A stretch of 63,532 bases of DNA, filler included, from Kipferlia bialata (Eukaryota), in NCBI GenBank assembly GCA_003568945.1. It is 3 parts of 3 records of this genome, joined end to end, with 100 filler letters (N's around TTAATTAATTAA, not from the genome) between each part and the next. Parts side by side here need not be neighbours in the genome. Positions count along the whole stretch, not along the records: positions 29,897 to 59,640 come from BDIP01000130.1; 2 more parts are not named here. One strand, 5' to 3'. The stretch's first letter is position 1. Every line of letters starts with the position of its first letter. Of the stretch, positions 49,734-57,242 are shown piece after piece. Below the pieces are notes generated by a model that saw only the letters and a list, made by a program, of their open reading frames with translations, had not been told where the DNA came from and ran no database searches. A program made the position numbers and the translations under genes.

Positions 49734-49960
49734 GGAAAATCACCCCCCCCCCTCCCCCCCCCCCCCCCCCCTCCCTCCCCCGCGCCCATCTCACACACAT
49801 ATGTATATATATATACTTTCTTTTCTTTCGCTTTTCTCATGTGTACTCCCCCCCCCCCTCCTCTCTCTCTCTCTCTCTCTCTCATGTATAGGACCAGGCG
49901 CCTCATCATCTTTGTCATCTACTTCTCTCTCTCCCCCCCCCATCCCGATCTCTCTCTCTC

Positions 49961-50845
49961 ATGTATAGGACCAGGCGCCTTGTGATATTCATCACCTGCT
50001 CCCTCATCTACTTCTTCGCTGTGTTCCACAGGGTGTCCATCAGTGTGCTCATTGACCACTTGTCAGGTAATGCATGTACTCTTTGCACCATACCTCTATA
50101 TATGCATAGTATGCATACCATACATAATATGTGATTGATCACCTGTCAGGTATAGTATACTCTTTCGCTCTACTCAGTCCTGCTCTCTCTCCTCCTCCGT
50201 CCCTCGGTATACTATATACCAATGTGTATATGTAACCTCCAGCCCAGTACGGTGTGGACAAGGCAGACATGTCATCATCCATACAATATATATATATATC
50301 TCTCTCTCTCTATATATATATATTCTCTATCTATCTATATACATATCTATCTAACCTCAGCCCAGTATGGAGTGGACAAGGCAGACATGTCATCGTTCAG
50401 TGCAGTCTACTTCTGGTACGTATACACCACTACTGTGGTATGGTATATATATATGTGTATATATAGTGACGTAGAGTACATCAATGCTGACAGTGTATTT
50501 GACATGTCATCGTTCAGTGCAGTGTACTTCTGGTATGTATCCTACACACATCTATATATACGTATATCAAATGGAGGGTACCTACAGTATACTGATAGTG
50601 AGTATTTGAAGTGTCCTCATACAGTGCAGTCTCCTTCTAGCGAGTGCAATGGTCTTCACTCTCTACATATATCCATTGATGCTACCCCCCCCCCCCGCCA
50701 GGTTATATACCCTCCATCCACCTGTGAAGCTCCAGCTTAATTGTATTTTACACCTCTTTTCTTCCTTATGTCTCTATATTAGATACAGTAATATTGACCC
50801 AGTTTCTATGCCCTCCTCCAGCCCGTGGGTGGGTAACTGGCAGAG

Positions 50846-50877
<32 letters not shown>

Positions 50878-53800
50878 GTATTTATATGCCAATACATAGA
50901 GCAACACTGACTCCTCAGGTTCTATGCCCTCCTCCAGCCCGTGGGTGGGTCCCTGGCAGATGTCATTGATCCATCATGGCTGCTCACTGCTAGGTATGTG
51001 TATATATAGAGAGACAGCGTTATGGATATTGACAGCTAGGTATATATATGCTACTGTATAGGTCATCACTCCCTCTAGCTCTCCCCCCTTCTCTCTCTCT
51101 CTAACCACCAGTGGTGTCATCACTGCCCTTGGATCACTCATGATGGGCATCACACACTCGTTCGGAGGTAGGACAATGTATGTCTCTCTTTATATCTAAT
51201 CACTCGTTCGAAGGTATGTCTCCCTCTGTATGTCTCTCTCTATATATTGAATCACCCATTTGGAGGTCTAGAGGCATGACCCAATGTAGGATTGATATGT
51301 ATACTCCCTGTCTCTTCCCTCATTCAGTCTTAGTTGCCCTTGTTGGCCGTGCCCTGATTGGCATAGTCTCTCTCTCTCTGTGTCTCTCTCCCTCTCTCTC
51401 TCTCTCTATATCTTATCACAGTTGCCCTTGTTGGCCGTGCCCTCATTGGCATTGGTTCTCTCTCTCTCTATCTCTCTATCTACACATATGTACATATATA
51501 TACATTATGCCTCTCACTTCTAGTTGCCCTTGTTGGCCGTGCCCTCATTGGCATAGGCCTTGCCCCAGTGTACATCCCATCAGCCAGACTCCTCATATCA
51601 TGGTAAGTAACTCTGCTATTGTATCCACTTACCCTTTAGTCATACCTATGTATCCTGAAGTGTGTCTATACATATCATATATATGTAAATTTTCCAATTC
51701 TTTTCGTGTTTGAACCTCTTATGCCTCAGGTACTCTGCCAGTGACTATACCTTCATTCACTCATGTATCACTACTGCAATATATACATATATAAATTCTG
51801 TCATTAGTCGCTGTCATATCTGATGCCCAGGTACTCTGCCAGTGACTATGCCTTCATGAGTGCACTGCTCCTGTTCTGTGGAGGTAGGGTCAATATGATG
51901 TATACATAAATACACCATAATTATATGTATATATATATATATGTGTGTGTGTGTAAGTGTATTATATTATATATATATGCCTTCATGAGTGCACTGCTCC
52001 TGTTCTGTGGAGGTAGGGCAGGAGTCTCTCTCTATCTCTCTCTCTCAACCCCCCCCTCTCTCTATATGTATTTGACTACTCTAACCACTAGGCATGGGAG
52101 CAGTGGGTGCCGCCTACCCACTCAGAGTAGCTGCAGATGCGGTGAGTACATATCCCATGTATATGTTATATATAGTCTCTAATCTCTCTATTCTCTATCA
52201 ATACTTAGAGCAGCAGACGCGGTAGGTATGTCAATTCTTATATACATATCGTTGCTTACACATACGTATGTCTGTTTATATATACACTCATATCTCCTAT
52301 GAGTCTCACTCCAGCTAGGTGTCCCAGCCTATATATATAAGTATATATTTTAATCTACTTATGTGTTTTACACTGTATCTTGTTTTGTATACTATAGGTC
52401 TTATGAGTCTCACCCCAGCTTGGAGTTCCAGCCACCATGGGCATCTGTGTAGTATACTATACACTGTATACTCTATACTCTATAGTCTATACTCTACACT
52501 CCATTGGCAGTGATACTCTGCAGTCTATCTCACCCCAGCTGGGTGTCCCAGCCACCATGGGCATATGCTCAGCAATCACCCTGGCACTAGGTAGGATGTA
52601 TGCCCTATATACTATATACTATATACTATAGTACATGTGTGACTATGTATATGTTAATATATATCACTCTACCACCATGGGCATATGCTCAGCAATCACC
52701 CTGGCACTAGGTATGATATATGTTTGTATGTTTGTATATAGAGATAGTACATGTATGTATATATAATAGTATCACTCTGCCACCATGGGCATATGCTCAG
52801 CAATCACCCTGGCGCTAGGTTTAGTATATATGTATGTGTAGTTGCCAACCCCTACACCTCTGTCTCTCTCTCTCTCCATATATGTATATATGTGTGTGCG
52901 AGTGTGTATCTCCTTACACCCCAGGCGCTGTTGCCCTGTTCTTTGTCAGAGCAGATCCTCTCTCTCTCCCCCTCTCTCTATATATACATGTGTATATCTT
53001 ATCGCTAGGTGCTGTTGCCCTGTTCTTTGTCCGTGCTGACCCCTCTGCATGTGGTGGGGCAGATGGCACTCAGGAGAAGGTATATATATATATTCTACAG
53101 TATACTATATATACGCAATATATAATAGTATACTATACACTACCTATACTATATTTGAATTGGAATGACCTTTCTGCAAGTGGAGGGGCAGACGTCACTC
53201 AGGAGAAGGTATGCGGGTATATATATCTGAGGCTGTTTACATAGCCGAGCGTCATACCCCCCGAGGCCGTTGAGGATGGCAGTCTCTCTCTCTCTCTCTC
53301 TATACGTATCTAACACCAGGCAGTGCCTTCTGAGGCCATCGAGGATGGCAGTGAGTCCTGTTCCCTCTCTCTCTCTCTCCCCCCCTCTATCTTTTTCTAA
53401 CAATAGCCAATCCCCTCCGAGGCCATTGAGGATGGCAGTGAGTCCTGTTCCCTGGATGACGGTCTCACTGCACACGCACCAGAGCAGAGACAGTCAGTCA
53501 TACCAAGGGTCTTCAGGACGGTAAGTGGTAATCAGTATAAATACATATACAGATGTGTATGTAGATACATGGTGTTATATACACCAGAGCAGAGGCAGTC
53601 AGTTATACCAAGGGTGTTTAGGACGGTTCGTGCAATAGTCATATATATAGATACTATATCAAGTAGACACTAGGGATTGATCGAGCAGAGACTATCAGTC
53701 ATACCAAGGGTCTTCTGGATAGGTGTATCTGTTCTTCTCTCTCTCTCTCCCTCTATATTTATATATATATTTACTAATATACATATCTCACCCCCAGTCC

Positions 53801-56141: not shown

Positions 56142-56178
<37 letters not shown>

Positions 56179-56684
56179 ATGCATAGATACACCTAACCCT
56201 AGGCGCTGCCATGTCCTGGGTCAACCTTGTCATATTCCTTGGCTCTGCCATTCTGCAGCAGGTACATATATATGTATACATACTATGAAGTCTATACTAT
56301 ATGTGCTACTTCAGTATGTATTGAAGACCATACTGCAGCAGATACTGACTAGCTCCATATTTTGTACCGAGTATATAGATATGTTCTACAGTGTATGTAG
56401 GTAGGTGTGTGTATCTTCTTACCACTACTTACCTTCATATCTCCTATGGCACTGTCCTATCATGCTATGTAGAATATCTTTAAGTGTATTGTGTGTCTCT
56501 TTATACCAATAATGAAAGTGTATTAGAGTGCGTGTATACTCTTACCCCCCAGATCACCAAGGGTACTGTCCTCCCATGTGATGGAGATGACTACTGCCCA
56601 GACTCATTCAGGTATAGCGTAGAATACTATCGTGTAGCACGACAAGTGGTACTTTTTGCTTGTGTTTCTGGGGCATGATTGGTG

Positions 56685-56720
<36 letters not shown>

Positions 56721-57242
56721 ATGTGCCAGCTGGGGCCTGTGGGGCATGATTGGTGCCGGTCAGCTGATAGCCCTGGGGTGCATACTGTGCTGGCCAGGTA
56801 ATTGATATATATACACACACATACGTACATATATATATGTATATATACATATGTATATATACACATGCATGGAATGTCTACTTAGATAGCCCTGGGGTGC
56901 ACACTGTGCTGGCCAGGTGAGTATAGTATATATGGATATATGCATATATACACATACACACATGTGTATATATATATATAGAGTGTCTACCAATGTAGAC
57001 GGTGACACAGGTACTGGTGTGCATACTGTGCTGGCCAGGTTTCTCTCTCTCTCTCTCCCTCCCTCTCTATCTATATTCCCCCAGAGACCTTTGGCCAGAC
57101 ATCCTCTCTCTCTCTCTCTCTGCGTGTCTATCTCTCCCCCTCTTCTTTAACCCCAGAGACCTTTGGCCAGACCGCCTCTCTGTCTAGTGATAAGAAGGCA
57201 GAGGGAGAGGGAGAGGTCGTCGAGGGAGAGACTGTGGTGTAG
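49961..57242 (+). CDS. Major facilitator superfamily transporter (12-TM type, sugar-phosphate/UhpC-like or MFSD1-like), ~20 exons
   Basis: Spliced RRLVIFITCSLIYFFAVFHRVSISVLIDHLS-AQYGVDKADMSSFSAVYFW-FYALLQPWVGSLADVIDP (motif A-like)...VGRALIGIG...SPAIATVSNK-LHTRKW...SVKERFPIELSG-AAMSWVNLVIFLGSAILQQ...WPETFGQ...TVV-TAG (57240-57242). 49961 may be the ATG, or 49969 an exon start. Confidence 0.9.

What the first reader, a model, noticed from the sequence alone, without database searches (positions are those of the whole stretch)
49884..57160. Intronic partial exon 'echoes' that diverge almost only at synonymous sites, across the MFS gene
Seen: nearly every MFS exon has 1-4 truncated copies in its flanking introns, separated by TA/CT microsatellites. 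They lack one splice site, so they cannot be ordinary alternative exons, yet their mismatches preserve the protein. Examples (full exon vs echo): ATT GAC CAC TTG vs ATT GAT CAC CTG (~50135); TAT GGA vs TAC GGT (~50244); CTG GGT GTC..ATA TGC vs CTT GGA GTT..ATC TGT (~52419); CGT GCT GAC CCC vs AGA GCA GAT CCT (~52925); AGA..GTC..GTC TTC vs AGG..GTT..GTG TTT (~53583); ACG GTC TCT vs ACA GTT TCC (~54730). Established: neutral intronic duplicates accumulate changes at all codon positions. Inference: the echoes either (a) are recently captured pieces of strongly diverged functional alleles/paralogs, inserted during repair at microsatellites, (b) remain under protein-level selection because they are recombined or converted into the expressed exon (a silent exon-cassette reservoir or programmed rearrangement), or (c) are haplotypes concatenated by the assembler. 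I know of no described system matching (a) or (b) at this density.
Basis: partly seen in the sequence, partly recalled or inferred. Interest (0 to 1): 0.92.

Follow-up and report, generated by a model that had tools for sequence, protein, structure and literature searches.

The report
Allele-like exon-end echoes stacked in introns
The introns of this protist transporter gene hold dozens of cut-off copies of the neighbouring exon ends that differ from the exons mostly at silent positions and are skipped in the spliced contig; they are likely once-working exon ends displaced by mispaired recombination between very different alleles, which would record past outcrossing in a group where sex has not been directly observed.

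Summary
Confirmed. A 20-exon MFS transporter gene (named Kipferlia bialata in the protein database) has 34 partial exon copies beside 15 exons. They carry 66 synonymous and 20 non-synonymous differences (pN/pS 0.10); a corrected neutral-duplicate null expects 40% synonymous (p 4e-12). Four other genes in the window add 18 echoes. Upstream echoes are exon starts, downstream echoes exon ends. Each upstream echo has its own acceptor, different from the exon's yet mostly consensus-conforming, and the intron flanks were not co-copied. Independently assembled DNA contigs carry echo and own exon together, so haplotype concatenation is unlikely. A spliced contig joins only full exons 1-14. Best reading (0.55, inferred): inter-allelic tandem duplications, seeded by a microhomology-type junction and multiplied by echo-exon mispairing between alleles about 20% apart at silent sites. 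Weak points: the donors are not seen, the isolate looks nearly homozygous here, no second isolate is available, and nearest echoes are unexpectedly often in frame (21 of 34). No description found in the literature searches made.

The parts
49961..57242 (+). MFS transporter gene, 20 exons: 49961-50066, 50361-50415, 50919-50993, 51112-51167, 51524-51602, 51831-51883, 52092-52141, 52539-52590, 53009-53079, 53407-53520, 53798-53863, 54049-54160, 54519-54610, 54849-54922, 55409-55479, 55729-55779, 56203-56261, 56553-56611, 56730-56797, 57157-57242
   Evidence: open 482-aa frame; P0001 and Pfam MFS_1; spliced record offsets for exons 1-14
49884..49903 (+). upstream echo of exon 1 (start of coding sequence)
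   Evidence: 0 syn, 0 nonsyn in the aligned 20 nt; a second piece at 49915-49926
50134..50149 (+). short downstream echo of exon 1, below the score-15 threshold
   Evidence: 2 syn
50243..50276 (+). upstream echo of exon 2 with own AG
   Evidence: 2 syn, 0 nonsyn
50501..50532 (+). downstream echo of exon 2 with GT (nearest)
   Evidence: 1 syn
50612..50638 (+). downstream echo of exon 2 (farther, decayed)
   Evidence: 2 syn, 2 nonsyn
50804..50844 (+). upstream echo of exon 3
   Evidence: 0 syn, 2 nonsyn in one codon
51334..51366 (+). upstream echo of exon 5 (farther)
   Evidence: 1 syn
51422..51455 (+). upstream echo of exon 5 (nearest)
   Evidence: 1 syn
51730..51756 (+). upstream echo of exon 6
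   Evidence: 1 nonsyn; same DNA contig as own exon
51976..52012 (+). downstream echo of exon 6
   Evidence: identical over 37 nt; intron flank differs after 6 nt
52419..52447 (+). upstream echo of exon 8
   Evidence: 4 syn; same DNA contig as own exon
52672..52818 (+). two downstream echoes of exon 8 (52672-52710, 52779-52818) with the same cut point
   Evidence: 0 and 1 syn
52927..52958 (+). upstream echo of exon 9
   Evidence: 4 syn
53166..53208 (+). downstream echo of exon 9
   Evidence: 2 syn, 4 nonsyn; same DNA contig as own exon
53254..53366 (+). two upstream echoes of exon 10 (53254-53283, 53326-53366)
   Evidence: 1 syn + 2 nonsyn (farther); 3 syn (nearest)
53582..53719 (+). two downstream echoes of exon 10 (53582-53625, 53683-53719)
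   Evidence: 4 syn (nearest); 3 nonsyn (farther); both on one DNA contig with own exon
53924..53944 (+). downstream echo of exon 11
   Evidence: identical over 21 nt
54216..54456 (+). three upstream echoes of exon 13 (54216-54234, 54293-54332, 54411-54456)
   Evidence: 1, 3, 3 syn; acceptor-side flank of the middle echo resembles the exon's, that of the nearest does not
54702..54747 (+). downstream echo of exon 13
   Evidence: 3 syn
54971..55245 (+). three downstream echoes of exon 14 (54971-55033, 55098-55138, 55205-55245)
   Evidence: 9, 5, 6 syn, 0 nonsyn; three bases at two third positions; first on one DNA contig with own exon
55625..55648 (+). upstream echo of exon 16
   Evidence: identical over 24 nt; no read-level check
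55908..56147 (+). three upstream echoes of exon 17 (55908-55936, 56011-56047, 56113-56147)
   Evidence: 1+1, 5+1, 2+1 (syn+nonsyn); three bases at two positions; no read-level check
56669..57038 (+). echoes of exon 19: upstream 56669-56686; downstream 56885-56916, 57014-57038
   Evidence: 0; 1 nonsyn; 1 nonsyn; no read-level check
57085..57113 (+). upstream echo of exon 20
   Evidence: 2 syn, 1 nonsyn; no read-level check
15132..18755 (+). 8 echoes in an uncharacterised 16-exon gene (14946-18898, P0006)
   Evidence: 13 syn, 9 nonsyn; exon model equals P0006 from its first Met
59004..59415 (+). 3 echoes in a partial hand-built gene (58665-59344)
   Evidence: 2 syn, 0 nonsyn
59979..60156 (+). 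2 echoes of exon 59859-59927
   Evidence: 5 syn, 0 nonsyn
61093..61764 (-). 5 echoes around minus-strand exon 61571-61500
   Evidence: 2 syn, 1 nonsyn

Best explanation
The echoes are partial exon copies with one splice site each, skipped in the spliced contig, and are likely the displaced ends of once-working exons left by tandem duplications whose two copies came from different, strongly diverged alleles. Shown: geometry, silent-site bias, distinct acceptors, flanks not co-copied, shared cut points. Inferred, step 1 (seeding, rare): after a break in an exon one end copies the exon end and 40-90 nt of intron from the homolog and rejoins by microhomology, often at a CT or TA run, leaving the old exon end with its old splice site as an echo (an unequal exchange at microhomology gives the same local product). 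Inferred, step 2 (propagation): because exons are the only well-matched sequence between such alleles, an echo on one allele mispairs with the exon of another; the product turns another working exon end into a new echo with the same cut point, and the reciprocal product removes a unit. Selection keeps products with one complete exon and, apparently, prefers an in-frame distance for the nearest competing splice site. Echoes then decay neutrally. This needs alleles about 0.2 apart at silent sites and more than two of them over time, so repeated outcrossing followed by loss of heterozygosity.
For: pN/pS 0.10, 66 of 86 differences synonymous against 40-47% under a neutral duplicate with a selected exon (p 4e-12 to 1e-8), none of 2000 simulations reached it; 22 of 32 in four other genes (p 9e-5). 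Polarity 49 of 52, none reversed. Flanks not co-copied: mean 8.7-8.9 of 20 identical against 6.2-6.6 for unrelated exons, 2 of 49 at >=18/20. Upstream echoes: AG in register 19 of 22, fused branch-point motif in 15 of these against 19 of 282 other intronic AGs (p 7e-13), none identical to the exon's acceptor over 13 nt; downstream GT 23 of 26, hexamer identical in 3. Sister echoes share cut points (13 of 22 pairs within 5 nt; p 1.5e-4 uniform null, 0.03 permutation null) and their spacers are weakly related (p 2e-4). Five sites show three bases. Non-synonymous differences lie nearer the cut end (p 0.004). Supplementary Data 2 of PMC8516963 lists Dmc1, Rad52, Spo11 and PolQ but no Rad51A or Ku70 for K. 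bialata; Dmc1 tolerates mismatches (abstract of PMC8682777); crossing-over between 14% diverged parents prefers exons in Schizophyllum (abstract of PMC4209137).
Against: No donor allele is seen: over 5.7 kb run X1 shows only 2 substitutions and 1 insertion in one intronic contig, plus microsatellite length gaps, and X2 shows no other letters; P0001's cluster has one member; two metagenome scans found no relative. 19 of 52 echoes have no synonymous difference, against 9.8 expected, though their flanks differ, so echo-exon conversion within an allele must be added. The age gradient is only a trend (non-synonymous 4/400 nearest against 13/456 farther in multi-echo arrays, p 0.08; all nearest against farther p 0.34). 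The cut-end bias is confounded by alignment edges. Junction microhomology was judged by eye only. Msh2, Msh3 and Rad10 are listed as present, so flap trimming is not obviously lost. The in-frame excess (21 of 34) was not predicted. An 82-exon gene in the same window has no echoes.
Confidence: 0.55

Rival explanations
1. Echoes are old duplicates kept protein-compatible by indirect selection, because they convert the exon often enough that a missense change in an echo is harmful (donor reservoir).
For: pN/pS 0.10; excess of echoes identical to the exon beside unrelated flanks shows exon-limited homogenisation.
Against: Does not explain why each echo has its own different yet consensus-conforming acceptor, which lies outside the converted part. 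Frequent conversion should erase differences, yet one echo differs at 9 of about 16 silent sites. By inference it needs even larger population diversity than the best reading. No echo variant in the listed pieces of the spliced record.
Confidence: 0.13
2. Echo splice sites are or were used: echoes are translated in minor extended isoforms, or are recently cut-down alternative exons.
For: Distance from exon to nearest echo is a multiple of 3 in 21 of 34 (post hoc p 6e-4; MFS 14 of 22, other genes 7 of 12), farther echoes 7 of 18; 9 of 27 MFS echoes with a retained site would give an open extended exon; splice signals intact.
Against: Silent bias is as strong in out-of-frame echoes (nearest 11 syn/5 nonsyn, farther 18/4). 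No echo spans a whole exon (0 of 52). No branch+AG near the cut in 13 of 13 downstream echoes. Record 9 has no insert between exons 1 and 14. Spacer stop-freedom in the reading frame (13 of 21) is not clearly above other frames (19 of 42).
Confidence: 0.12
3. Donors are paralogs, another lineage's genes or DNA taken up from outside rather than alleles met in a sexual or parasexual cycle.
For: Same local signature as the best reading; the isolate looks nearly homozygous here.
Against: Nearest other database proteins are 25-30% identical (4 of 7996 candidates scored); no exon-variant contigs at >=85% likeness were listed in either run; three-state sites need several donors.
Confidence: 0.1
4. 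Ordinary same-allele tandem duplications decaying neutrally.
For: Polarity and adjacency fit a duplication across a splice boundary; intron length rises with echo number (rho 0.77).
Against: Synonymous share 77% against 31-41% in simulation; flanks not co-copied.
Confidence: 0.04
5. Assembly artefact: haplotypes strung together at microsatellites.
Against: Eight X1 contigs match with 0 differences, cover 15 of the 26 echoes in the laid stretch, and hold echo and own exon together in 6 cases; seven of the eight have mean word depth 457-498; only 6 of 34 echoes share a run of >=31 nt with their exon; cut ends must exist in molecules to be assembled.
Confidence: 0.03

Closest known systems
Internal (partial) gene duplication and tandem exon duplicates in introns (Ivanov and Pervouchine 2022, PMC9013439, passages read; Gao and Lynch 2009 seen only as a reference entry)
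   Same: A copy of a gene's own exon sequence lies next to it in the intron, same strand.
   Different: Here no copy is a whole exon, intron flanks are not co-copied, differences are mostly silent, and copies are stacked at 34 per gene. The words 'partial' and 'synonymous' do not occur in PMC9013439.
One-sided invasion and microhomology-mediated template switching in double-strand break repair (review PMC4888836, passages read; one-sided invasion there only as a cited title, its mechanism recalled)
   Same: One homologous and one non-homologous joint would give exactly this local product.
   Different: Described as single repair events in engineered or disease settings in what I read, not as a standing architecture that builds most long introns of a gene from allele-like exon ends.
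Exon-biased crossing-over in hypervariable Schizophyllum commune (PMC4209137, abstract and outline)
   Same: Conserved exons are where very diverged alleles can pair.
   Different: The abstract reports ordinary crossovers; no leftover partial exons are mentioned.
Silent cassette gene conversion (trypanosome VSG, Borrelia vls, chicken immunoglobulin pseudogenes; recalled, no call)
   Same: Unexpressed partial copies beside or apart from an expressed gene.
   Different: Those donors vary the protein; echoes keep it nearly constant and flank a housekeeping transporter exon by exon.
Break-repair footprints in new Daphnia introns (PMC4202315, passages read)
   Same: Introns lengthened by direct repeats from break repair, some repeating exon ends.
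   Different: Those exon repeats are 4-12 bp; echoes are 16-63 nt, carry their own splice site and silent differences.

Membership tests
Neutral same-allele tandem partial duplicate | adjacent, same strand, spans an exon-intron boundary | tested here: met
   49 of 52 touch the facing exon end, none reversed
Neutral same-allele tandem partial duplicate | intron flank copied with the exon piece and about as similar | tested here: not met
   2 of 49 flanks at >=18/20; mean 8.7-8.9/20
Neutral same-allele tandem partial duplicate | differences at most about 40-47% synonymous | tested here: not met
   66 of 86; 0 of 2000 simulations
Mutually exclusive / duplicated alternative exons | full-length copy with both splice sites | tested here: not met
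   0 of 52 reach both exon ends
Mutually exclusive / duplicated alternative exons | included in transcripts | tested here: inconclusive
   not in record 9 between exons 1 and 14; contigs drop rare isoforms
Silent cassette conversion systems | donors carry amino-acid diversity | tested here: not met
   pN 0.023
Silent cassette conversion systems | expressed locus is a changing mosaic of donors within a population | tested here: inconclusive
   no other letters in X2, none in exons in X1; rare variants not visible
Inter-allelic one-sided repair / unequal exchange | the two copies were separately under coding and splicing selection | tested here: met
   silent bias; distinct consensus acceptors
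Inter-allelic one-sided repair / unequal exchange | microhomology or repeat at the non-homologous joint | tested here: inconclusive
   CT/TA run within 15 nt in 27 of 52 against 23% background; microhomology by eye only
Inter-allelic one-sided repair / unequal exchange | a donor allele with the matching exon variant and flank exists | not testable with these tools
   one sample only; no relatives found
Major facilitator superfamily (the host gene) | MFS_1 profile above curated cut-off | tested here: met
   109.6 bits against 33.4

The most novel reading that the evidence does not exclude
This lineage, which lacks Rad51A and Ku and repairs breaks with mismatch-tolerant Dmc1, runs a genome-wide ratchet that swaps exon ends and their splice sites between hyperdiverse alleles and stacks the displaced ends in introns. 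Long introns are then ordered archives of past alleles, splice sites are replaced wholesale rather than by point mutation, and one genome is enough to show repeated outcrossing and to estimate species diversity in a metamonad.
Probability: 0.35. Interest if true: 0.92.

Novelty: new variant of a known kind. Interest (0 to 1): 0.8.

Why it matters
Intronic debris is not expected to show pN/pS of 0.1 or to keep a series of different, well-formed splice sites. [quoted passage not shown] They would also be a route of intron growth and splice-site turnover tied to an unusual repair toolkit, and they pose a splicing question: how an intact acceptor or donor some 100 nt away is ignored. In practice they can mislead gene prediction (P0001 has an echo-like 13-aa insert).

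Tried and rejected
No whole genome is held for this window, so no genome-wide scan. The run search listed no holder on record as RNA; X2 is only guessed to be RNA, though record 9 is spliced. Several bins holding echoes have no X2 cover; that is not used as evidence. The last quarter of the gene (8 of 34 echoes) has no read-level check, and only 16 of 5039 laid pieces were listed. Two metagenome scans gave 48 and 593 pattern matches, none confirmed. The first frame-free scan and the echo list used an over-aggressive repeat filter (shown) and wrong exon ends for two small genes; one search replaces them. Four non-flanking or low-score hit classes (score 11-14) were left out of all counts. Codon-blind mutation bias was rejected: no transition weighting up to 20 lifts the null above 47%. 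mRNA- or pre-mRNA-templated copying was rejected because echoes carry intron flanks that differ from the exon's own. A two-parent hybrid origin alone was rejected by five three-state sites, although some third states could be later mutations. Ciliate-style programmed rearrangement (recalled) was not pursued: DNA contigs retain the echoes. Pfam gave nothing for P0006 or three short exons. Literature: searches listed no paper describing such echoes; I saw listings and abstract starts only, the library lacks most subscription papers, and supplements of the species' genome paper were not read.
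Full report
What is there. The window is three contigs joined by linkers; the finding lies on the middle one. A 20-exon model from 49961 to 57242 reads open for 482 aa. A search with one exon returned P0001, named a major facilitator protein of Kipferlia bialata, a free-living fornicate; it equals my model except for a 13-aa insert after residue 351 and matches Pfam MFS_1. A codon-blind ungapped search found 34 partial copies at score >=15 in flanking introns, beside 15 of 20 exons, and none at that score in other introns. They make up 1146 of 5833 intron bases, and intron length follows echo number.

Silent bias. The 34 echoes have 66 synonymous and 20 non-synonymous differences (pS 0.227, pN 0.023). 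The proper null is a neutral copy beside an exon that itself gains only synonymous changes, which gives 40% synonymous (47% with strong transition bias); it is rejected at p 4e-12 to 1e-8, and none of 2000 simulations run through the same detector reached 77%. Leaving out 8 nt at each cut end gives pS 0.244, pN 0.021. Four other genes in the window, one confirmed by P0006 and three partial hand-built models, add 18 echoes with 22 synonymous and 10 non-synonymous differences (p 9e-5). A roughly modelled 82-exon gene at 29.9-45.8 kb has none and about a thirteenth of the microsatellite density.

Real DNA, not in the main transcript. Two runs of one sample hold the stretch; X1 may be the window's own source, so it is an independent assembly, not an independent sample. 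Over 49740-55470 the eight listed X1 contigs match without differences; they cover 15 of the 26 echoes there and hold echo and own exon together in 6 cases. Seven have mean word depth 457-498 and one 375.5; the tool warns that depth is no copy number. Only 2 substitutions and 1 insertion, in one intronic contig, plus microsatellite gaps are listed. Record 9 of X2 (RNA by guess) is spliced: its eight listed pieces keep offset 278 to the full-exon coding sequence from exon 1 to exon 14, with no other letters, and its length, 1727, equals 278 plus the 1449-nt coding sequence. Rare isoforms and variants cannot be seen in contigs.

Anatomy. Upstream echoes are exon starts and downstream echoes exon ends: 49 of 52 touch the facing end, none the opposite, none both. 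This is the geometry of a tandem duplication across a splice boundary. But the intron flank was not co-copied: 8.7-8.9 of 20 bases match against 6.2-6.6 between unrelated exons, and only 2 of 49 reach 18, even where the exon part is identical. The flanks are slightly more alike than chance (p 1.5e-4 and 0.005), and one is clearly homologous (29 of 35 at 15717). True acceptors carry a branch point fused to the AG (33 of 35; motif derived from them). Upstream echoes keep AG in 19 of 22 cases and the motif in 15 of those, against 19 of 282 other intronic AGs, yet none equals the exon's acceptor over 13 nt. So each echo boundary appears to have diverged while still working as a splice site and coding sequence (inference). 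Spacers are 35-127 nt (median 69.5), about one ordinary intron (median 80 in the rough model). Echoes of one exon share cut points (13 of 22 pairs within 5 nt), five sites show three bases and nine show a change shared among echoes.

How it most likely works. Time alone cannot give this pattern, because a silent copy gains missense changes three times as fast as silent ones. The two copies must have been separated under selection for about 0.2 substitutions per silent site while the echo has been free for about 0.02. The simplest source is alleles. I propose a rare seeding duplication with one non-homologous joint, often at a CT or TA run, between a resident and a homologous allele, and then propagation by mispairing of echo and exon between alleles, which explains shared cut points, related spacers and fresh splice sites. 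Supplementary Data 2 of PMC8516963 (rows read) lists Dmc1, Rad52, Spo11, PolQ, Msh2, Msh3 and Rad10 but no Rad51A or Ku70 for K. bialata; the main text (passages) says metamonads lack classical end joining. Dmc1 tolerates mismatches (abstract), and exons are preferred crossover sites between 14% diverged Schizophyllum parents (abstract). These make the route plausible; they do not show it.

What counts against it. No donor is seen. The isolate looks nearly homozygous here; the species' genome paper (methods, results opening and overview section read) infers diploidy from k-mer peaks and, in those parts, does not mention such repeats. No close paralog or allele is in the protein collection and none in metagenomes. 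Nineteen of 52 echoes have no synonymous difference against 9.8 expected, so within-allele conversion has to be added. Decay with distance is a trend only (p 0.08 and 0.34). An unplanned result is that the distance to the nearest echo is a multiple of three in 21 of 34 cases (post hoc p 6e-4) but in 7 of 18 farther ones. I read this as a filter on leaky use of the competing splice site; it does not explain the silent bias, which holds out of frame too, but it keeps the isoform rival alive.

Comparison and verdict. It fails the tests for neutral partial duplicates, alternative exon clusters and silent cassettes, and works like one-sided repair or unequal exchange between diverged alleles, whose donor test could not be run. 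Seven literature searches and three look-ups of earlier scan notes showed no description of this architecture; that is a limited library. I rate it a new variant of a known kind, interest 0.8: the pattern is firm and surprising, the mechanism is inferred from one window and one isolate.

Noticed in passing
window 1-29796: The whole first contig is a perfect palindrome (0 mismatches to its reverse complement), centred on an AT run near 14898; probably an assembler fold-back, and the database holds two gene models (P0006, P0007) for its two arms.
   Followed up: partly
window 29936-45830: A roughly 82-exon, 2,800-codon gene with a leucine-rich-repeat-like stretch below Pfam cut-off (31938-32120) has short introns, few microsatellites and no echoes; why is unexplained.
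   Followed up: partly
window 55098-55138: Database model P0001 has a 13-aa repeat that fits an exon-14 echo taken as an extra exon; the length of spliced record 9 fits its exclusion, but offsets beyond exon 14 were not listed.
   Followed up: partly
MFS gene and gene 14946-18898, all acceptors: Branch point is fused to the 3' splice site (YTNAY, 2-5 nt, AG) in 33 of 35 acceptors; a similar fused signal in diplomonad and parabasalid introns is recalled, not checked.
   Followed up: partly
nearest echoes, all five genes: Echo-to-exon distance is a multiple of three in 21 of 34.
   Followed up: partly
window 17364-17390 and 59396-59425: Two echoes appear by eye to differ from their exon by a three-base indel, which would keep the frame; the ungapped search did not score these.
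   Followed up: no
window 50658-50684: The only listed base differences in run X1 over 5.7 kb: two substitutions and one insertion in one contig at about half depth.
   Followed up: no
window 15246-15286 and 15132-15168: Both upstream echoes of exon 15387-15502 share a two-base amino-acid change (Cys to Thr) together with three silent changes, as an allele would.
   Followed up: no
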